64,000 bases of DNA from a virus (Duplodnaviria > Caudoviricetes). Shown here piece after piece: positions 47,171 to 61,133 of the stretch (the stretch's first letter is position 1; the number at the start of each line of letters is the position of its first letter). The notes beneath the pieces were generated by a model. It did not search any database. It was not told where the DNA came from and saw only the letters and a program-made list of their open reading frames with translations. The stretch is taken from positions 8,853 through 72,852 of the IMG/VR virus record IMGVR_UViG_3300037400_003271, one strand, 5' to 3'. A program made the translations under genes and the position numbers.

Positions 47171-48128
47171 TAAAATGATTCGCGGACGCATAAGGGAGTC
47201 GAACCCCTACTCGCCCATAGCCGTTCGCGTTTCTCCTTTCTGCGAATAATCCCATATTCGCGCTTTACTACTTGAAACGCCATCTGCCCTATTCCATCGG
47301 CCTATTTTTTGCCTACAATACTATGTATATATCGCACCGCTACTCGTTTAGCATTGTACGAATTCAGTCTAAATTCGATTCGTACATAGTTAGCCCGCAT
47401 ATCGCGTCGGGACGCCTTTTTTAGTCCTATTTATTTATCCGGCGTTCATCGTTCAATTTTATAATCGGTTTCCCTATATTCGTCTATCCCGCCTATAGTC
47501 CGGCCTTTTTATTTAGACTGCCGTTTCAGTGTTTTTAGTTCCGCTCGGCTTGCAAAACTCACCTACATAGTAGGCCGTAGTCGGCTACAGGGTAAATCGT
47601 CGCTCATTCGTGGGTCATCCGTGGATGTAAGATTGGTAAGCATACAATGCCCCCCTATGAGGATTTCATTCCCTTTTACCTTCTCGCATTCAAACTTATA
47701 AAGAACTTTCAAATCGCTTACGCCTATATATATAACAATTGCCGTGCCAAAATACGGCACGCGTGCCAAAAATTAGCAAAAAAATTTAGGCCGTGCGTAT
47801 CTTATTGATTTCCAGCGGGTTACGGGCGTCAATTTAGAGAAATTCTAAATAGGAGGGCGCGGAGCGCCACTGTACTAGTATACTAAGACACCCCCTGGGT
47901 TTCATAAGCAAAAATTATGGGTTTCATACCTTTGCCGACCGCCAAAGGTTTGTAACTGCTTGATTATCAATAAGTTAGGCCGGCGAAGGGGTACGGGGGT
48001 TTATTGTGGCGGCTTATCGAAGGCCCCGCCTGCGACTCTGAAATTTTTTTTTCTTATAATCCGGGTTGCCTGGATTTCGACCAGCCCGGAGATCCTGAAC
48101 TCGAGGGGGTTGACACAAATTGTCAAAA

Positions 48129-50242: not shown

Positions 50243-50503
50243 ATGACAATGGAAACAAAGTATTCGATTTGCGACAAGGTCGCGTTTTTCAACACGACGG
50301 AGCGTAAGGTGCTGACCGCGGAGGTCAAGGGTATCCAGATTGTTCCGACTGGGATCAGCAAGAACGAGAAGGGTGAGAACGTGCTGGACGGCTACGTCGT
50401 CCTGTACCAGACCTTCGACGGCCCGATCCTCGCGGAGTCCGAGTGTTTCGACAGCGAGGAGGCGTGCAAGGCGTTCTACCGGGACTTCTTCAACAAGGAG
50501 TAG
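50243..50503 (+). CDS. hypothetical protein
   Basis: METKYSICDKVAF motif. Confidence 0.65.
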   Translation: MTMETKYSICDKVAFFNTTERKVLTAEVKGIQIVPTGISKNEKGENVLDGYVVLYQTFDGPILAESECFDSEEACKAFYRDFFNKE

Positions 50504-50670
50504 TAGCATCGGGTTTCCGGCGTTAAGGCGGGGGTGCCCGGCCGCGCACACCGTCAAGGGTAGGTCCGGAATATGGCAGGCGCCAGCCCGAGGATAGTTT
50601 GTGTGGCGTCGGCCGGATCAAAGCGGGCCGGAATAAAGGACATACCGCAATTCCGGGCAGCGGCAGACAG

Positions 50671-50752
50671 AGTGTGGTAGCTCAGTGGACAGAGCGCCGC
50701 CCCAAGCGCATGGGGATCAACGGAGACGCGGGTTCGAATCCCGTCCACGCAC
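50671..50752 (+). tRNA. tRNA-like RNA with expanded (27-nt) anticodon arm; no assignable anticodon
   Basis: acceptor GTGTGG/CCACGC, D arm GCTC/GAGC with GG, T arm GCGGG-TTCGAAT-CCCGT. Confidence 0.75.
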
Positions 50753-50770
50753 AGAGAGATCTTTGAAATT

Positions 50771-51124
50771 GGGGCTGGTTTGGTTTAGACTTGCATGAGG
50801 CAGGTACTGACTTACGCACTGGGCGGTGATCCCAGTTGAATAAAGCACCGAAAACACAAAAGGCAAGAATTTCATCAGCAGGATGGCGGGCAAGGCTCGT
50901 GCTCTGCGCGAAAAGGTCGCCGGGATCTTCGCTCCCCGCGAGATTGAAGAGTTCGCTCTGGCGATTGCCTAATTTCTCGGCTTAGGAAAACCGAGTGGTG
51001 GAGATGGGCAGTGAACTTCTGTCCTGACCGTCCTGGAGCCGGACAAAAATGGCTATCCTAAGCGTATGAACAAAGTCAGTATGGGCACATGTATAGGACG
51101 AGGGTTCGACTCCCTCCAGCTCCA
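50771..51124 (+). ncRNA. ssrA: tmRNA
   Basis: GGGGCTG/CAGCTCC-A acceptor with G3.U70; T arm GAGGG-TTCGACT-CCCTC; helix 2; pk1 (ACTGGG/CCCAGT, CGGTG/CACCG); tag frame 50862-50972 ending FALAIA*. Confidence 0.93.
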
Positions 51125-51329
51125 CAAAGGCAGTGAGGTATGCCCTATAGGGAACAACATTGGACTTGCCGTACAATAGTGCTTAGGAATCAAGTGCTAT
51201 GCCCAATGCCCGAAGAACCTGGTAGCGCAGGTCGCTGCAAACATATCGTCCCGCCGTGAGGCGCGAGCGCAGGCGCGAGTACATAGTGTCTTAGTGTATT
51301 AGTTCCCCGGGCCGCCTGACCGGGATTCT

Positions 51330-51401
51330 GGGAGGGTAGCTCAGAGGTAGAGCGGGCGCCGAGGGGCGCGAAGGCCGGCGGTCCGAATCCGCCCCCTTCC
51401 A
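51330..51401 (+). tRNA. tRNA-like RNA with Ala acceptor identity and mispaired anticodon arm
   Basis: GGGAGGG/CCCTTCC-A; D arm GCTC/GAGC; T arm GGCGG-TCCGAAT-CCGCC. Confidence 0.75.
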
Positions 51402-51499
51402 CACAGGAAGCGCAGTGATGCGCGGTGTAAACGGAGGATTTGCCATATAGTGAACTGGATAGTTATTGCTGATGGCCGTGTTCTTCCGTGCGGCCACAT

Positions 51500-51574
51500 A
51501 GCGGGGTGGTGAACCGGTAACACGCGAAGCCCCATGTACGCATCGAGAAGCAAGTTCGATTCTTGCCCCCGCAA
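51500..51574 (+). tRNA. fMet-like tRNA-shaped RNA with 21-nt anticodon arm
   Basis: GCGGGG/CCCCGC acceptor with 1:72 mismatch; T arm GCAAG-TTCGATT-CTTGC; CAT in a 15-nt loop. Confidence 0.7.
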
Positions 51575-51668
51575 CTCTATGAAACGGACAGCAGCATACG
51601 GCGTCAGCAGGACGCGGGATGCCAGGGGCGTGTCTTCTGGAGATATATCCCGAAGAAACCGGGCAGGA

Positions 51669-51700
51669 TTTGTAAGTTTGGAATAGTTTTTGTATGTTTG
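51669..51700 (+). promoter_or_regulatory. Bacteroidetes sigma70-type promoter of replication genes
   Basis: TTTG-N20-TATGTTTG. Confidence 0.65.
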
Positions 51701-51738
51701 TAATCCGCGTCTATGGGTACGGCGCAGAAGAAAATTCG

Positions 51739-51801
51739 AGCCAGAGTCGTAGGGGAAGTACCCACCTTTCTTCGGAGAGGTCCCCTCGGCCCTGGCTTTT
51801 T
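51739..51801 (+). terminator. long hairpin with cUUCGg loop and U-tract in primase leader
   Basis: AGCCAG/CTGGCT, GTCG/CGGC, AGGGG/CCCCT, ACCTTTC/GAGAGGT, then TTTT. Confidence 0.65.
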
Positions 51802-51819
51802 GTTTAAAAACCGCAAGTT

Positions 51820-53283
51820 TTGAGCAAGAAGAATGATGTCATAGACTACCTCATTTCGGTCCTGGAGCCGGAGATTTCCGGCAAGGGGGCGACTGACGGC
51901 AAATTGGACAAGCTCAAGGAGGCAGAGCTCTGCGACGCCTTCGAGAGTTATGTCTGTGGCAGGCCGGACGATACGGGGTGCGACTTTTTCAAGGTCGCGG
52001 AGGGTGATGTCTTGTTCATGTTCAACGGGAAGTGGTACGAGAAGATTGACGATGTGCGCCTGCGCTTCATCGTGAAGGAGGTGCTTAGGAAATGCCACGT
52101 GGGTTCGATCTATATCCGTAACTCTGCGTCGAAGATCGCCGACGAGTGCAAGGAGACGCTCCTTTCATGCGAATGGTGTTTCTTCGAGCCGGACCGCAGG
52201 TATGTGGTGTTCCGGAACGGTGTTCTGGATATGGAGACGAGGCGCTTTTATGAACACGACATCAAGTACAAGACGGACATAGTCCTGAATTTCAACTACC
52301 TATCGAACGAGAGGAGCGGCCTGTGGGACCGTCTCATCTCGCAGACGGTTCCGGACGAGGGTATGCGCGGCGCGATGCAGCAGTTCTGCGGCGCCATGCT
52401 CGCGGACCGGAAGAAGTTCAAGATCGAGTACATGCTGATGCTGGTCGGTAGCGGCCGGAATGGCAAGTCGGTGGTTACCGACGCCATCGCGAACGTGTTC
52501 GGAGACGATCTGGTGAGTTCGTACAGCCCGGAGCAGCTCTTCGGGAACACGGGCCATAGCCTGTACAACCTCGCGGACATCAACGGAAAGTTGGCGAACA
52601 TCTGCGACGATCTGAAGAACAAGGAATTCTCCGGAGGCGAGTTCAAGCAATTCATCTCCGGGCACAAGTTCCAGGCGCGGCACATCTACGGCCGCCCGTT
52701 CGTGGTCAGCAAGATCCCTCTGATGGTGTGCTGCATGAACGAGATTCCTCCGACCACGGACGATACTATGGGCCACTACCGCCGGCTCCTGCCGATCCTC
52801 TGCCCGAACCAGGTGGCGGAGAAGGACGTGGACTACGAGCTGTCGGACAAGTTGGCGACGGATGACAACAAGGCGGCCATCTTCAACTGGCTCCTCGACG
52901 GCTACAAGGCGTTCGTGGAGAACAAGGGCCGCATCGAAATCAGCGACAGCATCAAGAATATCCGCGAGGACATCAAGGCCGACGCGAACTCCGCCCGGCA
53001 GTGGATCCGAGAGATGGGATACACTCCCGTCGCCGTGCGCGATCCGAACGACCCTCGCTGGAAGCCTATCAACGAGTGGATGCGCGAGTACATCGATTGG
53101 TGCCGCGAGTGCTCCGAGAACGCGAAGACGGCCAAGGCAGTCGGCTCCGTGCTGAAGGACCTCGGGTTTGCCAGCGAGAAGCGCAGGAGCACCACTTGGT
53201 ATTGCATCGGGAGGAAGGCCGAAGAGAATGTTGTGTCTACCGACCTCCCCGGCGAGGATGGTAAGGACGATCTTCCGTTCTGA
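51820..53283 (+). CDS. D5/P4-type SF3 primase-associated helicase
   Basis: YVVFRNGVLD; Walker A GSGRNGKS; LANICDD; FKQFISG; RRLLPILC; TTG start. Confidence 0.85.
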   Translation: MSKKNDVIDYLISVLEPEISGKGATDGKLDKLKEAELCDAFESYVCGRPDDTGCDFFKVAEGDVLFMFNGKWYEKIDDVRLRFIVKEVLRKCHVGSIYIRNSASKIADECKETLLSCEWCFFEPDRRYVVFRNGVLDMETRRFYEHDIKYKTDIVLNFNYLSNERSGLWDRLISQTVPDEGMRGAMQQFCGAMLADRKKFKIEYMLMLVGSGRNGKSVVTDAIANVFGDDLVSSYSPEQLFGNTGHSLYNLADINGKLANICDDLKNKEFSGGEFKQFISGHKFQARHIYGRPFVVSKIPLMVCCMNEIPPTTDDTMGHYRRLLPILCPNQVAEKDVDYELSDKLATDDNKAAIFNWLLDGYKAFVENKGRIEISDSIKNIREDIKADANSARQWIREMGYTPVAVRDPNDPRWKPINEWMREYIDWCRECSENAKTAKAVGSVLKDLGFASEKRRSTTWYCIGRKAEENVVSTDLPGEDGKDDLPF

Positions 53284-53285
53284 TT

Positions 53286-54200
53286 ATGGCAGGATATAGA
53301 GTAGCAAGGGCTTTCGAGCGGATCCCGGAGATCACCGGGCTGGAACTTGTGCGCAACGGCGCCAAGTGGCAGGGCGGCTATTATCTGAACGGCGACAGGC
53401 ATCAGTTCCGCCGCGACAAGCTGAAAGTGGTGGAGTGGAAGAACGGCATCTGGCTGTTCGAGGAGGGGGGCGACAGCATGAGCCTCGAGAACTGGCTGCA
53501 GCAGTATGGCGGCGCCAAGGACTATTGGGACGCAGTGGCGATCATAGAGGGGAGGTCTGAAGGGTTTCGGTATGACCGCGATGTGAGGAAGAAGGAGACG
53601 CGGCAGCAGTATGTCGATCCGAGCGCGCTCGCCGGGGCGAAGCAGTATGATCTGAGGAAGTGCAACCTCTTCAACTGGATGTGCACGATGTTCCCGGAGA
53701 AGAGAGTACGCGAGGTGTGGGATATGTACAACGTGACGACAGATTCGCACGGTAATTGCGTCTTCTGGTACGTTGACCAGGACGGAAAGATATTGTATGA
53801 CAAGAGAATCCTATATAAGGCCGATGGCCACAGAGATCGAGGTTTCTTCCCCGGACGGCAATACAGAGTCGCTGACGGATACGTTGGAAAGTGCTATTTC
53901 GGTGCGCATCTTAAGGACGACGGGAAAAAAGCCTTTATTATGGAGAGCGAAAAGTCAGTGCTGCTCTCGTCGCTCTATTTCGGAAATAGAAGATTTATGG
54001 CTTGCGGTGGGAAGTCGAATCTCCGCGAAATAGAGCCGAACACACTGCTTGTCCCCGATATGGATGCCCGCATTGAATGGGATGAGAAGGGCGAGGTATG
54101 GCCGTGGTGGGAGAAGTGGGGGAAGCCCGTGAGCGAGATCCCGGAGAAGGCCGACATCGGCGATATGATCGAAAGCAGGTTATTGCGTAATTTAGAATAA
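53286..54200 (+). CDS. primase-related Toprim-like protein (DUF6371-like)
   Basis: FWYVDQDGKI; CYFGAHL; IMESEKS; MACGG; LVPDMD; ADIGD. Confidence 0.7.
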   Translation: MAGYRVARAFERIPEITGLELVRNGAKWQGGYYLNGDRHQFRRDKLKVVEWKNGIWLFEEGGDSMSLENWLQQYGGAKDYWDAVAIIEGRSEGFRYDRDVRKKETRQQYVDPSALAGAKQYDLRKCNLFNWMCTMFPEKRVREVWDMYNVTTDSHGNCVFWYVDQDGKILYDKRILYKADGHRDRGFFPGRQYRVADGYVGKCYFGAHLKDDGKKAFIMESEKSVLLSSLYFGNRRFMACGGKSNLREIEPNTLLVPDMDARIEWDEKGEVWPWWEKWGKPVSEIPEKADIGDMIESRLLRNLE

Positions 54201-54213
54201 TTCCAAATTAGAT

Positions 54214-54612
54214 ATGAACAAGAACTGCGTCTGGAAAGTGAAAGAGGAGGACCGCAATTGCGGATATTGCGTCATAAGGAGATGGTGTGGCGTGCGCGTT
54301 CGTCCGTCCGCCAGCCCGCTTGTGACCGGCAAGAAGTATATCGGCGTTGCTTGGGCGGTTACGGGAGAGGACCCGCTGTCCGGGTCCAGACGCCGTGCTG
54401 CCGTGTGGGCGAGGAATATGGTCGCGTACAGGATGTCTCTGGACGGGTACACGCAGGAGGCGATAGCCCCAGTGGTAGGGCGCGACCGTTGTACTGTCAT
54501 GCACTGCATCCAGAGAATGTCAGATGCGCTCGCGTCTCCGAAGCAGTATCCGGACGAGGTGGAGTATTGGAATATGTTTCAGGAAAGGTTATCTTTGAGT
54601 AAAACAAACTGA
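54214..54612 (+). CDS. DnaA C-terminal-like HTH protein
   Basis: VWARNMVAY...TQEAIAPVVGRDRCTVMH. Confidence 0.7.
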   Translation: MNKNCVWKVKEEDRNCGYCVIRRWCGVRVRPSASPLVTGKKYIGVAWAVTGEDPLSGSRRRAAVWARNMVAYRMSLDGYTQEAIAPVVGRDRCTVMHCIQRMSDALASPKQYPDEVEYWNMFQERLSLSKTN

Positions 54613-54613
54613 T

Positions 54614-55090
54614 ATGTGGAAGAAATTTGTAACATGGTGGTATTTCCACCTCGCTAATCCGGTGATCCGGAAGGGCGAAAGCGGCGGATTCCGGTGGTGT
54701 TTTCGCCGATTCTGGCTCGAGATCTCGTCTCTGAGCGGCAACTTCAAGGCGCGGTTCACTGCTTCCGAGCACCCTACCAGCTACCTGCTGGCCGGCAAGA
54801 CTGACGACAATATCGTTGGATTTTGCGAGATCATGTACACGGTCGGCATGCTGCTGACGAGAGACCAGGGCTTCGTCAACGACATCAACAAGGCTATCCA
54901 GAAGTACGACAAGCGCCTGCAGAAGTCCAACGCGCCGAAGGAGGACGAGGCCGAGGAGAGGATTGACCTTGAATATGTGAAGGGCGTCCAGGATTTTGTT
55001 GAGCAGCCGAAGAGCGAGCGTAGCAAGCGCGCAAAGGCGGTGGACAAGAAGTTCAAGGCCGCGGCACGGAATTTGCAGAAAGAGGAGTAA
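54614..55090 (+). CDS. hypothetical protein
   Basis: 158-aa ORF. Confidence 0.7.
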   Translation: MWKKFVTWWYFHLANPVIRKGESGGFRWCFRRFWLEISSLSGNFKARFTASEHPTSYLLAGKTDDNIVGFCEIMYTVGMLLTRDQGFVNDINKAIQKYDKRLQKSNAPKEDEAEERIDLEYVKGVQDFVEQPKSERSKRAKAVDKKFKAAARNLQKEE

Positions 55091-55102
55091 AAACGAGCGA
55101 TT

Positions 55103-55669
55103 ATGGAATCTCAAGAAAACATCCACTACAGGGTCGGCGGCAAGCTGACCCACGCTGGTGTGGAGATGCTTCCCGAGGGGAACGACATCCCGCGCATCAT
55201 CATCGAGCGGATCGAGTACAAGGAGAGCGAGATGATCAACGGCCGCTCCGAGTTCGGTGTGTGGGTCGCGCATTTCGCGCAGAACCCGTACACTACCCTT
55301 CCGCTCATCCTCAACTCAACGAACCGGAAGCGGATTATCAAGCAGTTCCCCGAGTGCGACGGCTATCCGGCCCGCCTGAAGAACATCGCCGTGCGCCTTA
55401 CGAAGGAGCGCTGCAGGGATGTGCAGGATGGTGGCGAGACTTGGGGCCTGCGGATCAGCAAGACCCCGGCCGATCCGGCGCCGGCCGCTCCAGCGCCTGC
55501 GGCTCCGGCCAAGAAGAAGGTCATCACCGAGGACAAGATCGGCGTGATCGTCGACTGGGCCAAGAAAGACCACCTTACGATCGAGCAGGTCGCGGCCACA
55601 TATGACTTCGAGTCGGAAGAGGTGCGCCAGACCATCGCGAACGCAATCACGGACGATTTACCCGAGTAG
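55103..55669 (+). CDS. putative ssDNA-binding/annealing partner of YqaJ exonuclease
   Basis: PLILNSTNRKRI...GLRI motif; adjacent to exonuclease. Confidence 0.55.
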   Translation: MESQENIHYRVGGKLTHAGVEMLPEGNDIPRIIIERIEYKESEMINGRSEFGVWVAHFAQNPYTTLPLILNSTNRKRIIKQFPECDGYPARLKNIAVRLTKERCRDVQDGGETWGLRISKTPADPAPAAPAPAAPAKKKVITEDKIGVIVDWAKKDHLTIEQVAATYDFESEEVRQTIANAITDDLPE

Positions 55670-55672
55670 CGT

Positions 55673-56404
55673 ATGGCAACGAAAGAAGAAAAATGGCTGG
55701 AGCGCCGTGTCGGAATGATTACGGCGAGCGAGCTTGGGCAGATCATGAGCGCGAGCGGAAAGATCATTGACGGCAACCTGTCGTATATCCGCGCGAAGCG
55801 TTTCGAGCGCAAGCACGGGTTTTCTCACCCTGTGACCGCGCGAGCGATGGAGATCGGCAACGAGCAGGAGCCGTACGTGATTGACTGGTGCCGGGCTAAC
55901 CTGCCCGTCGGAGAGATCGTCTACTCCAAGGACCTTCCGGAGATCCCGTTCTGGGTGGCCGCCGGCTGTCCCGTCGGCGCCTCTCCGGACGCGTACACGC
56001 CAGACGAACGCATTGTGATTGAGGCGAAGACCCTTGTCGGGGCCACCGCGATCGAGTTCTTCGACGACGAGTACACCCCCGCAGAGGAGAAGAAGGCCGC
56101 TGTATGGAAAGACCATGGCGACCAGATCCTCGGACAGTTTATCTCGAACAGCAAAATCGAAACCATCCTTCTTGTCAAATACATCTACCAGGATGACGAC
56201 ATTATGAAGGACTTGGACAGCCCGAACGCTCCCTGGCGCGGGCTCGTGTTCAAGTTCGACCGCAAGGATTACCTTGAGAGCATCGAGATGATGCGTGAGC
56301 GCATCATTCTGTTCGACAAGATGATTGACGCGCCCATCAACCCTTCCGAGTTCAAGAAGGGCGAGTGGATCGTATTGGCAAACGGGCAACTGACCAAGGT
56401 ATGA
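55673..56404 (+). CDS. YqaJ/lambda-exonuclease family protein
   Basis: WLERRVGMITASEL; GNEQEP; GASPDA; IEAK. Confidence 0.85.
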   Translation: MATKEEKWLERRVGMITASELGQIMSASGKIIDGNLSYIRAKRFERKHGFSHPVTARAMEIGNEQEPYVIDWCRANLPVGEIVYSKDLPEIPFWVAAGCPVGASPDAYTPDERIVIEAKTLVGATAIEFFDDEYTPAEEKKAAVWKDHGDQILGQFISNSKIETILLVKYIYQDDDIMKDLDSPNAPWRGLVFKFDRKDYLESIEMMRERIILFDKMIDAPINPSEFKKGEWIVLANGQLTKV

Positions 56405-56568
56405 CACAGAAAGGGAACACCATTTTTGACGAGCGTGGCCGCGCCCTCGCGAAGTTCGTGTACTACGGGAAGCGCCGAGACATCGAGCGCACGCCAACCT
56501 GTACTATCGGCGAATATTTCGCGATCCTTTCATGGCTTATGGATCAAGATGAAGAAGCTGCCTCTTAA
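56401..56568 (+). CDS. small hypothetical protein
   Basis: MTQKGN start overlapping upstream stop. Confidence 0.45.
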   Translation: MTQKGNTIFDERGRALAKFVYYGKRRDIERTPTCTIGEYFAILSWLMDQDEEAAS

Positions 56569-57160
56569 CAGAACGACGGCTCCACAGGTGATCCGCCTTT
56601 TCGACTCGTGCTTCAAGCGCGGTGTCCTGGACGCTTGCGCCCAGGATGACGCCTATGCGCTTGTTGACTGGCTCGACCGGCACAAGAAGGCCGGCGACTA
56701 CGGCCTCGTGTATGACGACGATGACTTCGATTTCAAGCGCTGGCGGTTCACCATCGAGCGTTGGTGCCGCGAGGACAGGCTCGGGTCGGTCGGGGACACC
56801 TATATCGGAGCCCCGTGTCTGCGGACATCGCAGAAGACATTTCTGTTTGCGGTGCTTCCGATGACGATGCGCTTCTATATGATGGGCGTCGAGGAGTGGC
56901 TCGAGTACCAGAACCCTCTTTCACTCGAGCGCTTCAAGCACACGAAAAAGATCCACTGGAAGCCAATGTCGAAGCACCTGCAGGTGATAACCACGCAGGA
57001 CTTCCTCAGCTTGCTGCAGGAGTTTATCTACGAGCGTCAGAAGATGAAGCTCGAGGGCGACTTGACGGCGGCCCAGTATGACAGCTTCTCTGTTGCTATG
57101 TATAAGTTCACGAGAAAGTATGAGTTGCCAGACTTTAAAGAGACAGACGAAGATCTTTAG
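56549..57160 (+). CDS. hypothetical protein
   Basis: MKKLPL start. Confidence 0.65.
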   Translation: MKKLPLNRTTAPQVIRLFDSCFKRGVLDACAQDDAYALVDWLDRHKKAGDYGLVYDDDDFDFKRWRFTIERWCREDRLGSVGDTYIGAPCLRTSQKTFLFAVLPMTMRFYMMGVEEWLEYQNPLSLERFKHTKKIHWKPMSKHLQVITTQDFLSLLQEFIYERQKMKLEGDLTAAQYDSFSVAMYKFTRKYELPDFKETDEDL

Positions 57161-57485
57161 GATCGCGCACGACGACCCCGGCCCGTTGCACCTTGACTTC
57201 ATCGTGCTTCCGGTCGGGTATTCGTACAACGCGGACATCAGAGAGGCGAAGAGTGGAGACATAATCCGCCTGGCTGATGGTACGACCGGAGTGATCTACT
57301 CCGTCCGCGTAGTTGATATGAAGAGGCCGGCCGCGGACCTGCTTTGCAGGATCCGGTACGGCATCTCGCTGAAGGGCGCGCTTATGCGCTGGCGAATAAA
57401 TGCAAGGCTGGAAGGGCACGGAGAGAAGGCTGTCAGTGAAGATGAGTGTCTGTGGGTAATCTATTCCAAGGATGAACAAGATTAG
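57120..57485 (+). CDS. hypothetical protein
   Basis: ORF; start uncertain. Confidence 0.6.
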   Translation: MSCQTLKRQTKIFRIAHDDPGPLHLDFIVLPVGYSYNADIREAKSGDIIRLADGTTGVIYSVRVVDMKRPAADLLCRIRYGISLKGALMRWRINARLEGHGEKAVSEDECLWVIYSKDEQD

Positions 57486-57771
57486 TGCGAAATACGCGGA
57501 GTACGTGCTACTCCCGAAGGAGGAGGTCAGCGGTATCGTCGCCGGCCCGTTCCGCACGCTTGACGACAAGGTGTGCGAGGCGACTTTCATTTCCGGATGG
57601 GACAACCGGGACGGGAGGTACGACGAGCAGCTCGACAAGGTGTGCAGGAAGTATTGGGGCGTCGGATTCTCTACCGTCAAGTCCCTCTGGCACGAGAGGC
57701 GGTGGGAGATTGAGGGGTACTGGTACCTGTTCAACCTAAGGCTTTCCACGGCGGCAAAAGGCGCCGCATAG
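57472..57771 (+). CDS. hypothetical protein
   Basis: ORF overlapping upstream gene. Confidence 0.6.
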   Translation: MNKISAKYAEYVLLPKEEVSGIVAGPFRTLDDKVCEATFISGWDNRDGRYDEQLDKVCRKYWGVGFSTVKSLWHERRWEIEGYWYLFNLRLSTAAKGAA

Positions 57772-57779
57772 ATGCTTTT

Positions 57780-57897
57780 GTCGGAGTAGCTCAGATGGTA
57801 AGAGCGGCAGAGGGAGGGTTGCGATATTCCCGAAGTGGAAGCATAAATCCCGATAGGCCCGTTTCTGTAGACGCCGGTTCGAGTCCGGCCTCCGGCT
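57780..57897 (+). tRNA. tRNA-shaped RNA with a 52-nt insert replacing the anticodon loop
   Basis: 7-bp acceptor GTCGGAG/CTCCGGC; D arm; anticodon stem GCAGA/TCTGT; T arm GCCGG-TTCGAGT-CCGGC. Confidence 0.85.
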
Positions 57898-57898
57898 C

Positions 57899-59380
57899 AT
57901 GGAATTACGGAAATACCAACAGACGCTGATTGACGAGGCCAGAACAGCCCTGTCGAGACACAAGCACATCATCGTACAGTCCCCAACCGGAAGTGGGAAA
58001 GGCGTCTTGATCGGTTCAATGGCCTCTATGTCTCGATATAGGGTCCTAATTCTCGCGCACAGCGAGGAGATATTGAGCCAGGACGCCGGCCACGCAAGGA
58101 AGTGGGGGATCGATGCTGCTGAGGTTCTCGCGAAGACGAGGAAGCTGCCCGACGCGAAGTGCTGCGTGATGATGGCGCAGACGCTCCGGCAACGCCTCAA
58201 GAAGGAGGACTGGTCGGCCTGGTTCGACTCCTTCGGTTTCATCATCCTGGACGAGTGCCATCGCGCCGAGATGGATTTCATCTTCGAGCGGCCCGGCGTC
58301 GATAGTACCTTTGTCGTCGGCCTGTCCGCTTCGCCGGCCAGATATGGCCAGATGCGCCAGTTCGGTCTTGACTACGGCGCCGTCGTGATCGGGCCGCAGG
58401 TAAAGGAACTGATTGCCGGCGGATACCTGTGCCGCTGCCGCCTGTTCTCTCTTGACGCGCCGTCCCTCACGGACGTGGAGTGGTCGTACGGCCGCGGAGA
58501 CTACAACCTCTCGCAGATGGCCGCGAAGTTCAAGTCTCGCGCCCGCTATGTCGGCGCCGTCGAGAACTACAAGAGGATCTGCCCTGGCGAGAAATGCCTC
58601 GTTTTTTGCTGCTCGAGCGAGCAGACGATAGAAGTTACCAAGGCGTTCTGCGAGGCCGGAATTGACGCGCGCTATTGCCTCTCTGGAGACTTTGACGAGG
58701 ACGAGGAATACAGCGGCGACCGCAAGGACGTCGTCGACGCGTTCGCGCGCGGAGATTTTCAGGTTCTGGTGAATTTTGGCCTGTTCACGACGGGCGTGGA
58801 TATACCAGACATTAAGGTCGTGATGCTGATGTTCTCGACTATGTCTCTTGTGAAGTATCTGCAGTGTCTCGGCCGCGCCAGTCGGCCGGCGCCAGGGAAA
58901 AATGGCGAGTTCATATGTCTGGACTTCGGCCGCAACTACGAGCGGCTGGGCCGGTACGAGGATGATCGCGAGTGGTCTGTCTGGCATAACACCGGCGCCG
59001 GCGGTGGTCCGGCACCCGTGAAGGAATGCCCGCAGTGCCACAAGCTGGTGCCTGTATCCTGGACCGATTGCCAGTTCTGCGGGTATCATTGGCCCAGCAA
59101 GCAGGAGACATATGTTGCGGACCTGCAGGAGATAGCGGCCAAAAACGAGTTTGAAACCGTCGAGGGATATGTGTCCAGAATGAAACTGCTCGGAAAGAAC
59201 ACGAACTGGATCCTCGTGAACGTGTGCCTCAGGAACGATACCGATATGAAGGGGGCGTTTATGAAGGCCGCAAAGGTCCTTGGGTTGAAGCCTACGTATT
59301 GGAAATTTTTTAAAATGAACATTCTCGACAAGGCCAAGGTTAAGCAAAAAGACGGTACTTGCGGGCCAGGCCTCTTCTGA
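57899..59380 (+). CDS. SF2 (DEAD/DEAH-like) helicase with C-terminal zinc finger
   Basis: QSPTGSGKG, ILDECHRA, GLSASP, TGVDIP, QCLGRASR, CPQC...CQFC. Confidence 0.9.
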   Translation: MELRKYQQTLIDEARTALSRHKHIIVQSPTGSGKGVLIGSMASMSRYRVLILAHSEEILSQDAGHARKWGIDAAEVLAKTRKLPDAKCCVMMAQTLRQRLKKEDWSAWFDSFGFIILDECHRAEMDFIFERPGVDSTFVVGLSASPARYGQMRQFGLDYGAVVIGPQVKELIAGGYLCRCRLFSLDAPSLTDVEWSYGRGDYNLSQMAAKFKSRARYVGAVENYKRICPGEKCLVFCCSSEQTIEVTKAFCEAGIDARYCLSGDFDEDEEYSGDRKDVVDAFARGDFQVLVNFGLFTTGVDIPDIKVVMLMFSTMSLVKYLQCLGRASRPAPGKNGEFICLDFGRNYERLGRYEDDREWSVWHNTGAGGGPAPVKECPQCHKLVPVSWTDCQFCGYHWPSKQETYVADLQEIAAKNEFETVEGYVSRMKLLGKNTNWILVNVCLRNDTDMKGAFMKAAKVLGLKPTYWKFFKMNILDKAKVKQKDGTCGPGLF

Positions 59381-59939: not shown

Positions 59940-61133
59940 ATGATTGAGATTAAGAGAAATATCGGCTCTCCGGTGAAGGTTTTCGCCGAGACTTTCGAGT
60001 ACGAGGCTTACGACCAGGTGAAGGCGCTGGCCAACTATTCTCCCTATGCTGATTCGACCATCCGGATTATGCCGGACGCACATGCCGGCAAGGGCTGCAC
60101 TATCGGCACCACGATGACTCTGCACGGAAAGGTCACGCCGAATCTTGTGGGCGTGGACATCGGATGCGGTATGCTCGTGGCGGAACTCGGTTCAAGGATT
60201 CGCCCGGACTTCGCCAAGCTGGATGCGGCTATCAAGGCTGGCATCCCGTCCGGCTTCGGAATCCACGAGTCTCCGGTCGTCAAGTTCCCGATGCTTGACC
60301 TGCTCCGCTGTGGTCATGCCGTCGATCTGTCCCGTGCCGCCTGCTCCATTGGCTCGCTCGGTGGCGGGAATCACTTCATCGAGCTGGACGTGAACGAGGA
60401 GACCGGCGGGTATTACCTTGTCATCCACTCCGGCTCCAGGAACCTCGGCGTGCAGGTCTGCAAGTATTATCAGGACCTCGCCTACAAGAAACTGAATGAG
60501 ACCGGAGCGGCCAAGAATGAAATCGTCAAGAGACTGAAGGCTGAGGGCCGTGAGAAAGATATTCAGACTGAGCTGAAAAAGTTCCAGAAGCCACCGTGCA
60601 ATAAGGAGCTGGCCCATCTCGATGGCGCTGACTTCGATGACTACATCGCCGACATGAGGATCGTGCAGCGGTATGCTTCCGTGAATCGCTCTACGATGGC
60701 CGGGTTTATCCTGACCGCTATGGGGTGGAATCCGAAGGGCTACTTCGAGACCATCCACAACTACATCGACACCGACGCGATGATACTTCGCAAGGGGGCG
60801 GTCCGCGCTAATGCCGGCGAGAAGCTCATTATCCCGATGAATATGCGTGACGGCTCGCTGATCTGCGTCGGCAAGGGTAATCCGGACTGGAACTACTCGG
60901 CCCCGCACGGCGCCGGCCGACTGATGTCCCGTGCTAAGGCGAAGGAGACGCTTTCGCTGGATGAGTTCAAGAGCACGATGTCCGGTATCTATTCGACCAC
61001 CGTCGGCAAAGGGACCATCGACGAGTCGCCGATGGCTTACAAGCCGATGGATGAGATTATCCGGTGCATCGAGCCTACGGCCAAGGTGTCGGAGATTATC
61101 AAGCCTGTTTATAATTTTAAGGCCGGAGAGTAG
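59940..61133 (+). CDS. rtcB: RtcB-family RNA 2',3'-cyclic phosphate/3'-phosphate-5'-OH ligase
   Basis: MPDAHAGKG, VGVDIGCG, GSLGGGNHFIE, HSGSR, HNY, RKGA, PHGAGR, ESPMAYK. Confidence 0.95.
   Translation: MIEIKRNIGSPVKVFAETFEYEAYDQVKALANYSPYADSTIRIMPDAHAGKGCTIGTTMTLHGKVTPNLVGVDIGCGMLVAELGSRIRPDFAKLDAAIKAGIPSGFGIHESPVVKFPMLDLLRCGHAVDLSRAACSIGSLGGGNHFIELDVNEETGGYYLVIHSGSRNLGVQVCKYYQDLAYKKLNETGAAKNEIVKRLKAEGREKDIQTELKKFQKPPCNKELAHLDGADFDDYIADMRIVQRYASVNRSTMAGFILTAMGWNPKGYFETIHNYIDTDAMILRKGAVRANAGEKLIIPMNMRDGSLICVGKGNPDWNYSAPHGAGRLMSRAKAKETLSLDEFKSTMSGIYSTTVGKGTIDESPMAYKPMDEIIRCIEPTAKVSEIIKPVYNFKAGE

What the first reader, a model, noticed from the sequence alone, without database searches (positions are those of the whole stretch)
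50671..57897. Four tRNA-shaped RNAs with intact elbow and acceptor arm but no canonical anticodon arm
Seen: 50671-50752, 51330-51401, 51500-51574 and 57780-57897 each keep a paired acceptor stem, U8, a D arm with the GG dinucleotide, a short variable region (AGAC/AGGCC/AGAA/AGAC) and a 5-bp T arm. In all four the anticodon arm is broken: it spans 27, 17 (mispaired), 21 and 62 nt against the normal 17, and none has a U33-type 7-nt loop. No ordinary tRNA was found in the window. Random decay would not be expected to spare the rest of the cloverleaf four times while always hitting the same arm, which suggests selection for tRNA shape without decoding. Inferred roles: decoys that titrate host anticodon nucleases or tRNA-sensing defences (PrrC/RloC, PARIS AriB, retron effectors); RNase P/RNase Z processing signals that cut polycistronic RNA; or natural scaffolds displaying cargo hairpins.
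Basis: partly seen in the sequence, partly recalled or inferred. Interest (0 to 1): 0.88.

Follow-up and report, generated by a model that had tools for sequence, protein, structure and literature searches.

The report
Anticodon-less tRNA-shaped phage RNA genes
A complete 73-kb phage, probably of Bacteroidales, carries four genes that fold like transfer RNAs but lack a usable anticodon loop; sister phages show the tRNA "shell" is kept by selection while the decoding arm is scrambled, deleted or replaced, so these look like working non-decoding tRNA look-alikes whose job is untested.

Summary
A shell-only filter (acceptor, U8, D arm with GG, T arm) finds exactly these four elements in the window, against 0.005 expected from shuffles. 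Rfam scores three of them above the tRNA threshold. No tool finds a normal anticodon loop. The complete phage genome has no ordinary tRNA.

Sister phages show the origin. Element 1 sits where a relative has a tRNA-Met(CAU). Element 2 sits where relatives have a normal tRNA-Thr(UGU).

Among six near-identical phages the shells vary less than fourfold-degenerate sites (0.11 against 0.33). Every shell stem stays paired, several through changes on both sides.

The anticodon arms behave differently:
- Element 2 has three unrelated hairpin alleles.
- Element 3 loses the whole arm in three of six phages.
- Element 4 carries an invariant 52-nt insert.

These are therefore tRNA-derived, non-decoding RNAs kept for their shape. 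I think RNase P/RNase Z processing modules in polycistronic RNA are the most likely role, at moderate confidence and with no expression data. Decoys for anticodon nucleases are unlikely. Introns are essentially excluded.

This scan has noted similar anticodon-less tRNA mimics in other phages. I found no paper describing them.

The parts
50671..50752 (+). Element 1. tRNA-shaped RNA with acceptor 50671-50677/50745-50751 (A:A at 1:72), D arm and T arm. The anticodon region 50697-50723 (27 nt) is a 3-bp outer stem, an inner 5-bp hairpin with a 6-nt loop and a 5-nt bulge. It ends 18 nt before the tmRNA.
   Evidence: Rfam tRNA 41.1 bits. ARAGORN tRNA-???. Cloverleaf is the minimum-energy fold. Six orthologues have 98.6% of cells paired and two pairs changed on both sides. 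Positional orthologue of a tRNA-Met(CAU) in L027.
51330..51401 (+). Element 2. tRNA-shaped RNA of canonical length, with G3:U70 and A73. The anticodon region is replaced by a 5-bp hairpin with a 4-nt loop at 51356-51369, out of the canonical register. The T loop has C at position 55.
   Evidence: Rfam tRNA 43.6 bits. Fold. Three unrelated arm alleles in six sister phages with invariant flanks. Shell 100% paired. Aligns with tRNA-Thr(UGU) of L027 and L028 behind the same upstream hairpin.
51500..51574 (+). Element 3. Degenerate tRNA-shaped RNA with an initiator-like acceptor (A:A at 1:72), a 3-bp D stem and a perfect T arm. The anticodon region 51525-51545 is a mismatched stem with a 9-nt loop.
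   Evidence: Not found by Rfam or ARAGORN. Passes the shell filter. Cloverleaf is the minimum-energy fold. The shell shows no substitutions in six phages, while a 16-nt deletion removes the whole arm in L003, L024 and L025.
57780..57897 (+). Element 4. tRNA scaffold with a fully paired 7-bp acceptor, D arm, 5-bp anticodon stem (57807-57811/57864-57868) and T arm. It ends 1 nt before the helicase ATG at 57899.
   Evidence: Rfam tRNA 48.4 bits. Identical in L015 and L024. L025 has a compensatory T-stem pair. With L002 and L029 homologues, 100% of 61 shell cells are paired, 5 pairs changed on both sides, and 0 of 500 shuffles reach the observed score.
57812..57863 (+). The 52-nt insert that replaces the anticodon loop of element 4.
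   Evidence: Invariant in four sister phages. The 5' part (a GGGAGG..GCGA.ATT motif) is shared with the 28-nt insert (loop) of L002 and L029. No other Rfam family matches it.
50771..51127 (+). Phage tmRNA lying between elements 1 and 2. It is context, being part of the same RNA island.
   Evidence: Rfam RF00023, 67.9 bits, E 2.6e-24. Present in L004, L015, L018, L021 and L027, always 15-20 nt behind a tRNA or tRNA-like gene.

Best explanation
The four elements are former phage tRNA genes that have lost decoding. Element 1 comes from a Met/initiator-type tRNA. Element 2 occupies the tRNA-Thr(UGU) slot. All four are kept as tRNA-shaped RNAs. Selection maintains the parts that tRNA-processing enzymes grip: the acceptor/T-arm stack and the D/T elbow. 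The anticodon arm is free to be resealed as a hairpin, deleted, or used to carry an insert.

Most likely mechanism (inferred, not shown): the elements act in cis as RNase P and RNase Z cleavage modules.
- Elements 1-3 lie in the promoter-less 1.1-kb RNA island behind the early rightward genes. There they would cut the transcript into the tmRNA and the other structured RNAs.
- Element 4 would separate the upstream message from the helicase message. RNase Z cleavage after position 57897 would leave the helicase AUG one nucleotide from the new 5' end.
- The released tRNA-shaped pieces would be stable, CCA-tailed by-products or scaffolds.
For: Shown:
- The shapes are real. No canonical anticodon loop exists.
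- They descend from tRNAs. The same flanks hold tRNA-Met(CAU) and tRNA-Thr(UGU) in L027, L028 and L018.
- In five sister phages, shells have 17 variable columns of 159. Fourfold primase sites have 61 of 183 (p=6e-7), spacers 101 of 419 (p=3e-4), and the anticodon arms 39 of 75.
- Shell stems are 98.6-100% paired, with double-sided changes in the element 1 D stem, the element 2 T stem, and the element 4 T stem and acceptor.
- The element 3 arm is deleted in three of six phages without any change to its shell.
- No + strand terminator-like site lies between the elements, and the only Bacteroidetes-type TAnnTTTG box near the island's end (51673/51693) lies downstream of element 3; one weak sigma-70-like match sits at 50763-50791. 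The nearest upstream TAnnTTTG boxes are at 47927 and 48553.
- No element, and not the tmRNA, encodes CCA.
- The helicase N-terminus starts at 57899, directly after the G+C-rich acceptor strand.

Established knowledge: RNase P, RNase Z and the CCA-adding enzyme read the acceptor/T stack and elbow, not the anticodon. An anticodon-less tRNA mimic (M. smegmatis YrlA) is cut by RNase P and CCA-tailed (PMC4201824).
Against: - There is no expression or end-mapping data.
- A bare minihelix is enough for RNase P and RNase Z. Conservation of the D arm and of a helix in the anticodon position therefore hints at something more than a cleavage signal.
- The 52-nt insert of element 4 is invariant, which a pure processing signal does not explain.
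- Element 4 is absent from L003 and many relatives, so it is not essential for helicase expression.
- In L002 an endonuclease gene separates element 4 from the helicase.
- The tmRNA has its own tRNA-like end for RNase P.
- The three alleles of the element 2 arm differ more than neutral drift predicts (0.74 against 0.33).
- Hairpins just upstream of each element are no more stable than shuffled sequence.
Confidence: 0.42

Rival explanations
1. Trans-acting decoys or sponges. The processed tRNA-shaped RNAs bind and occupy a host or phage protein that recognises the tRNA elbow or acceptor end. Candidates are a defence toxin that modifies the 3' end of tRNAs, a tRNA-modifying enzyme, or an elongation or processing factor. 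The variable arm would evolve in an arms race.
For: The whole L-shape is conserved, not just a minihelix. The element 2 arm diverges faster than fourfold sites, yet each allele is a perfect 5-bp hairpin. The phage and L024 encode RtcB, which points to RNA cleavage and repair conflicts in this system. In a mouse herpesvirus, one non-aminoacylated viral tRNA-like RNA alone restores virulence (PMC4337559).
Against: Anticodon nucleases read the loop that is missing here. The element 3 arm is dispensable. Stoichiometric decoys are a weak answer to enzymes that turn over. No candidate partner gene is linked: no Ro60, splicing endonuclease or CCA enzyme is present. RtcB is not co-inherited with the elements.
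Confidence: 0.18
2. Mostly non-functional relics. These are tRNA genes inactivated recently by hits in the anticodon arm, and the shells look conserved only because the island is young or was recently exchanged among these phages.
For: Relatives carry plain decay-type deletions, such as the 17-nt loss in the tRNA-Ser of L021. The element 3 arm deletion is polymorphic. The island is mosaic, so its divergence time may differ from that of the primase. The shells vary less than the tmRNA (0.11 against 0.23), so this comparison does not suggest decay. Element 4 is dispensable in L003.
Against: There are no unpaired cells in any shell stem of elements 2-4. At least five pairs changed on both sides, including between lineages with 82% primase identity. 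Each element 2 allele forms a perfect hairpin. The 52-nt insert is invariant. Strict shell hits across 31 related loci are 17 non-canonical against 4 canonical distinct sequences.
Confidence: 0.15
3. Element 4, and perhaps element 1, is a natural tRNA scaffold. The functional part is the conserved insert (an aptamer, a protein-binding site or a regulator), and the tRNA body provides folding, processing and stability.
For: The insert is invariant in four phages whose fourfold sites differ by 8-18%. Its 5' motif survives in L002 and L029 although five of seven acceptor pairs changed, four of them on both sides. The inner hairpin of element 1 shows a compensatory change.
Against: The insert has no significant predicted structure (whole-element z = -0.9) and no Rfam match. 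Only two insert types are available, which is too few for covariation. Elements 2 and 3 carry no cargo.
Confidence: 0.12
4. Aminoacylated but non-decoding carriers. Element 2 has G3:U70 and A73, so AlaRS would charge it, and it would donate or sequester alanine or AlaRS.
For: The G3:U70 and A73 identity set is present in the window, L003 and L025. It is established that AlaRS ignores the anticodon.
Against: L015, L024 and L026 have A3-U70 and G4:U69 instead, so the identity pair is not conserved. Five of six copies lack U8. Elements 1, 3 and 4 carry no anticodon-independent identity set that I could recognise.
Confidence: 0.05
5. Intron-bearing tRNAs. The extra nucleotides would be removed and the halves joined, for example by the phage RtcB, to give decoding tRNAs.
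For: An RtcB gene lies 2 kb downstream. ARAGORN can force a Gly(CCC) reading of element 4 with a 43-nt intron.
Against: Element 2 has no extra nucleotides and still no anticodon loop. Element 3 loses the whole arm in three phages. The forced element 4 loop lacks U33 and the intron is at a non-standard site. The inserts of 0-52 nt are far too short for group I introns. The genome has no splicing endonuclease. L015 and L025 keep the elements without RtcB in the same stretch. No ribozyme model matches.
Confidence: 0.03

Closest known systems
Canonical phage-encoded tRNAs (Rfam RF00005), such as the tRNA-Thr(UGU) and tRNA-Met(CAU) of the sister phages
   Same: Same ancestry and genomic slots. Same acceptor, D and T arms. 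No encoded CCA. Three of the four pass the Rfam threshold.
   Different: No 5-bp stem with a 7-nt loop and U33, so there is no anticodon to read. The arm is hypervariable, deleted or carries an insert.
tRNA-like parts (vtRNAs) of the murine gammaherpesvirus 68 TMER RNAs
   Same: Virus-encoded, tRNA-shaped and not aminoacylated. They are processed by RNase Z, which releases the neighbouring RNA modules (PMC4337559).
   Different: Those are eukaryotic Pol III units with internal promoters followed by miRNA hairpins. Here a bacterial phage has, apparently, a polycistronic transcript with a tmRNA and mRNAs as neighbours. Processing is not shown here.
YrlA, the bacterial and phage Y RNAs with a tRNA-like domain
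   Same: A non-decoding mimic of the acceptor, D and T arms. One member is cut by RNase P and CCA-tailed, and YrlA RNAs are also found in phages (PMC4201824).
   Different: YrlA is defined by a neighbouring Ro60/Rsr gene and a Ro-binding helix carrying the RNA ends. This genome has no TROVE protein and no YrlA hit in Rfam. The elements here keep normal tRNA topology.
Phage T4 RNAC and RNAD, small stable RNAs of the tRNA gene region
   Same: Small RNAs of unknown role, made from a phage tRNA cluster (PMC3014915).
   Different: I did not compare sequence or fold. T4 also keeps eight decoding tRNAs, whereas this phage keeps none.
mascRNA of MALAT1 and mitochondrial tRNA punctuation (from my own knowledge, not checked here)
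   Same: tRNA-shaped elements used as RNase P and RNase Z cut sites to define the ends of neighbouring RNAs.
   Different: Those are eukaryotic nuclear or organellar systems, with no phage context.

Membership tests
Canonical tRNA (RF00005) | Cloverleaf with 7-bp acceptor, D arm, T arm and conserved elbow nucleotides | tested here: met
   Rfam 41.1, 43.6 and 48.4 bits against a gathering score of 29 for elements 1, 2 and 4. Element 3 is not reported by Rfam but passes the shell filter.
Canonical tRNA (RF00005) | 5-bp anticodon stem closing a 7-nt loop with U33, a 3-nt anticodon and a purine at 37 | tested here: not met
   ARAGORN gives 6-nt loops or a forced intron. Rfam treats the region as 17-52-nt insertions. 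Folds show loops of 4, 6 and 9 nt or a 52-nt insert.
Canonical tRNA (RF00005) | Aminoacylation and decoding on the ribosome | not testable with these tools
   Needs charging and translation assays.
Intron-containing tRNA (archaeal bulge-helix-bulge or bacterial group I) | Removal of the insert restores a canonical loop, and the splicing machinery is available | tested here: not met
   No canonical loop can be restored. No tRNA_int_endo gene is present. Inserts are 0-52 nt. RtcB is not co-inherited.
YrlA / bacterial Y RNA | Encoded next to a Ro60/Rsr (TROVE) gene | tested here: not met
   No TROVE match in the complete genome, and the controls were positive.
YrlA / bacterial Y RNA | Ro-binding helix formed by the RNA ends, with the tRNA-like domain closed at the acceptor | tested here: not met
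   The elements have open acceptor stems in normal tRNA topology. No YrlA model hit at the gathering score.
tRNA pseudogene (neutral decay) | Substitutions and unpaired positions spread over all arms at the neutral rate | tested here: not met
   Shell 0.107 against fourfold 0.333 variable columns. Shell cells are 98.6-100% paired, with compensatory changes. The sample is small, at 4-6 distinct sequences per element.
Processed tRNA-like punctuation element (TMER vtRNA or mascRNA type) | Cleavage by RNase P at +1 and RNase Z after position 73, followed by CCA addition | not testable with these tools
Only the substrate features are seen: a 12-bp acceptor/T stack, the elbow, and no encoded CCA.

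The most novel reading that the evidence does not exclude
Phages maintain a so far undescribed class of 'tRNA-shell' RNAs. These are tRNA genes deliberately stripped of their anticodon, and they act in trans. The conserved elbow and acceptor would occupy a host tRNA-binding factor, such as a defence toxin acting on tRNA 3' ends, or a processing or translation factor. The anticodon position would serve as an evolvable display site. That would explain both the three hairpin alleles of element 2 in near-identical phages and the fixed 52-nt module of element 4.
Probability: 0.18. Interest if true: 0.85.

Novelty: new variant of a known kind. Interest (0 to 1): 0.6.

Why it matters
If confirmed, this shows step by step how a phage lineage turns decoding tRNA genes into non-decoding structural RNAs. 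Within one clade there are intact genes (Thr-UGU, Met-CAU), altered loops, resealed hairpins, arm-less minimal forms and insert-bearing scaffolds.

It would give bacteriophages a counterpart to herpesvirus vtRNAs and mascRNA. It would also be a natural version of the tRNA scaffolds and tRNA-spaced arrays used in RNA engineering.

There is a practical consequence. Annotation tools label these genes tRNA-Ala(AGC), tRNA-Gly with an intron, or 'undetermined'. Such labels distort phage tRNA counts, codon-usage arguments and host predictions.

This scan has noted similar elements in several unrelated phages, so the class may be common.

Tried and rejected
Searches that found nothing useful:
- BLASTN of 50400-58100 against the phage collection gave no match.
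- An exact tmRNA motif in IMG/VR gave no match.
- A motif search for the element 4 insert outside a tRNA context gave six matches, all apparently chance hits in coding or rRNA-like sequence.
- Rfam at relaxed thresholds found nothing in the element 4 insert and nothing for element 3.

No read evidence exists.

Ideas tested and dropped:
- Intron reading: ARAGORN in intron mode gives only a forced, non-canonical Gly(CCC) for element 4. No splicing endonuclease is present.
- Y RNA reading: no Ro60 gene.
- Phage CCA-adding enzyme: none found.
- Conserved alanine identity for element 2: half of the sister copies lack G3:U70.
- A protective hairpin 4-12 nt upstream of every element as support for processing: such hairpins exist but are no more stable than shuffled sequence (z = -0.02 to -1.8).
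- A fixed link between element 4 and the helicase start: not conserved in L002, where an endonuclease gene intervenes.

Literature:
- Eight full-text searches found no description of anticodon-less tRNA-shaped genes in bacteriophages. Subscription journals are not covered.

Full report
WHAT THE DNA IS. The window is bases 8853-72852 of a 72,852-bp virus record with direct terminal repeats, rated 100% complete. The region around the finding is a replication module:
- primase/helicase-type protein at 51820-53283;
- DUF6371 protein;
- YqaJ-like exonuclease;
- superfamily-2 helicase at 57899-59380;
- an RtcB RNA ligase at 59940-61133.
MazG and an HNH/NUMOD4 endonuclease lie upstream. Promoter-like boxes of the Bacteroidetes type (TAnnTTTG) occur at 47927, 48553 and 51673/51693. 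The one relative found in a named genome collection sits in a Candidatus Cryptobacteroides MAG.

CHECK OF THE OBSERVATION. Rfam's tRNA model scores elements 1, 2 and 4 above its gathering score (41.1, 43.6 and 48.4 bits against 29). It does so only by skipping 21, 17 and 52 nt in the anticodon region. ARAGORN calls elements 1 and 2 'tRNA-???' with 6-nt loops. It accepts element 4 only with a 43-nt intron at a non-standard place and a loop without U33. Element 3 is found by neither tool.

All four fold into a cloverleaf as the minimum-energy structure. A filter that ignores the anticodon arm finds exactly these four in both strands of the window. The filter asks for a T arm, acceptor pairs 2-7, U8, A14 and GG in the D loop. 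Two hundred dinucleotide shuffles give 0.005 hits on average. The filter was designed after seeing the elements, so the number shows 'not chance' rather than giving a formal probability.

The whole phage genome has no ordinary tRNA. The text of this finding did not mention a tmRNA at 50771-51127 (67.9 bits), which lies between elements 1 and 2. I consider the observation confirmed.

RELATIVES. Homologues of the adjacent primase gave 31 loci from viromes, metagenomes and assemblies. Five of them (L003, L015, L024, L025, L026) have a primase at least 95% identical and carry the same RNA island.

More distant members show what stood there before:
- In L027 the slot of element 1 holds a tRNA-Met(CAU) with an initiator-like acceptor. 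The slot has the same upstream and downstream flanks and the same T arm, and lies 15-20 nt before the tmRNA. In L004 the same gene has an altered loop.
- Element 2 aligns with the normal tRNA-Thr(UGU) of L027 and L028 (one gap column), directly behind the same small hairpin; L018's tRNA-Thr aligns over the body.
- Other relatives carry a normal tRNA-Ser(GCU) (L018), a 17-nt deletion derivative of it (L021), and further aberrant tRNA shapes.

So the elements derive from tRNAs.

HOW THEY EVOLVE. The second half of that test is not met. Among the window and four sisters, 33% of fourfold-degenerate primase sites vary (61 of 183). Other regions compare as follows:

| Region | Variable columns | Fraction | Test |
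|---|---|---|---|
| Shells of elements 1-3 | 17 of 159 | 0.11 | p=6e-7 against fourfold sites |
| Island spacers | 101 of 419 | 0.24 | p=3e-4 against shells |
| Anticodon arms | 39 of 75 | 0.52 | p=3e-11 against shells |

Shell stems stay paired:
- Element 1: 98.6% of cells paired, with the D-stem pair 11-24 and an inner-hairpin pair changed on both sides.
- Element 2: 100% paired, with T-stem pair 54-68 seen as G-C, C-G and U:G.
- Element 4 with its L002 and L029 homologues: 100% of 61 cells paired and five pairs changed on both sides. None of 500 shuffles reaches the observed score, and slid controls are 35-51% paired.

The arms behave otherwise:
- Element 2 has three unrelated alleles in six phages. 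Two are 5-bp hairpins with 4-nt loops, and one is a 5-bp stem with a 13-nt loop. The flanks are invariant.
- Element 3 loses its entire arm through a 16-nt deletion in three of six phages, with no other change.
- Element 4 carries a 52-nt insert that is identical in four phages. Part of it is recognisable in the 28-nt insert (loop) of L002 and L029.
- Element 4 itself is an accessory. L003 has an unrelated spacer in its place, and many relatives have no gap there at all.

Across all loci the strict shell filter returns 21 distinct sequences, of which only 4 have a canonical anticodon arm. The filter misses some normal tRNAs, so the ratio is rough. L012 even has a 62-nt form with no arm at all.

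Caveats. The sample is small. The island is mosaic, so its history may differ from that of the primase.

MECHANISM. Shown: these are tRNA-derived RNAs that cannot decode, and their acceptor, D and T parts are under constraint. Inferred: what that constraint is for.

The conserved parts are the ones read by RNase P, RNase Z and the CCA-adding enzyme. None of the elements, nor the tmRNA, encodes CCA. Elements 1-3 alternate with the tmRNA and other conserved structured segments. No terminator-like site on the + strand separates the elements, and the TAnnTTTG boxes lie outside the island; a weak sigma-70-like match lies at 50763-50791. The stretch lies behind the early rightward genes. Element 4 fills the gap between an upstream gene and the helicase and ends one base before its AUG.

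I therefore favour cis-acting processing modules that cut a polycistronic RNA and leave stable tRNA-shaped products (confidence about 0.4). Points against are listed in the Best explanation section. The main ones are:
- there are no RNA data;
- a minihelix would be enough for cleavage;
- the invariant insert of element 4 and the faster-than-neutral turnover of the element 2 arm need something more.

One possible cause of that turnover is conflict with the homing endonucleases that sit beside tRNA(-like) genes in L002, L027 and L028. This idea is untested.

RIVALS.
- Trans-acting decoys for elbow- or acceptor-binding proteins remain possible (0.18). Decoys for anticodon nucleases do not fit, because the loop is missing, variable or dispensable.
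- Neutral relics (0.15) are contradicted by the pairing data.
- A cargo scaffold (0.12) fits element 4 only.
- Alanine charging of element 2 (0.05) is weakened because half of the sister copies lack G3:U70.
- Introns joined by RtcB (0.03) are essentially excluded. Element 2 has no surplus bases. No splicing endonuclease is present. L015 and L025 keep the elements without RtcB in the same stretch.

COMPARISON WITH WHAT IS KNOWN.
- These are not canonical tRNAs, because the anticodon loop test fails.
- They are not YrlA RNAs, because there is no Ro60 gene and the topology is normal (PMC4201824).
- The nearest working analogues are the non-aminoacylated, RNase Z-processed vtRNAs of murine gammaherpesvirus 68 (PMC4337559), and, from my own knowledge, mascRNA and mitochondrial tRNA punctuation.
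- T4 makes two small RNAs of unknown role from its tRNA region (PMC3014915).
- Eight full-text searches found no paper on anticodon-less tRNA-shaped genes in bacteriophages.
- Earlier notes of this scan describe similar elements in other, unrelated phages. The general phenomenon is therefore not unique to this window. I did not test those claims.

I rate this a new variant of a known kind, with interest 0.6. The evolutionary series and the selection pattern are clear and would surprise many tRNA and phage specialists. The function is still inferred.

Noticed in passing
window 50771-51127 (+): Phage tmRNA (Rfam 67.9 bits) with a long tag reading frame. In L025 and L027 the tag region is strongly diverged while the tRNA-like end and pseudoknots are conserved.
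   Followed up: partly
window 51306-51324 (+): Small hairpin (5-bp stem, 9-nt loop) 5 nt upstream of element 2. The identical hairpin precedes the normal tRNA-Thr(UGU) in L027 and L028.
   Followed up: partly
window 51673-51800 (+): Two Bacteroidetes-type -7 boxes (TAnnTTTG) followed by a long hairpin with a T-run, just before the primase start at 51820. Conserved in all relatives. It may be a regulated leader.
   Followed up: no
window 47185-47338 (-): Conserved non-coding RNA candidate in the leftward early leader. It ends in a T-arm-like hairpin plus an acceptor-like strand. Homologues lie at L004:2591-2691(-), L023:1568-1675(-) and L025:3639-3707(-). No Rfam match.
   Followed up: partly
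L003:3321-3397(-), L015:4907-4983(-), L016:5624-5699(-): Self-cleaving ribozymes in sister phages: Twister-P5 at 43.9 bits and Pistol at 58.9 bits. None was found in the window. Their cleavage products would be RtcB substrates.
   Followed up: no
window 59940-61133 (+): RtcB RNA ligase gene (Pfam 6e-62). It is also in L024 but absent from the same stretch of L015 and L025, so it is an accessory gene not tied to the tRNA-like elements.
   Followed up: partly
L028:2694-3284: The tmRNA is replaced by an HNH endonuclease gene followed directly by a tRNA with an alanine-type acceptor (G3:U70, A73) and anticodon UGA. This may be a mischarging or altered tRNA.
   Followed up: no
L012:1174-1235 (-): 62-nt tRNA-like gene (Rfam 42.2 bits) with no anticodon arm at all, in a phage whose primase is only 50% identical.
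   Followed up: no
L002:17365-17955, L027:9451-9831, L028:2694-3209: HNH/NUMOD4 homing endonuclease genes lie immediately beside tRNA or tRNA-like genes. This may be a source of the mosaic and hypervariable alleles.
   Followed up: no
L003:15917-16015: Where the window has element 4, this 95%-identical sister phage has an unrelated spacer rich in GTAGTG repeats.
   Followed up: partly
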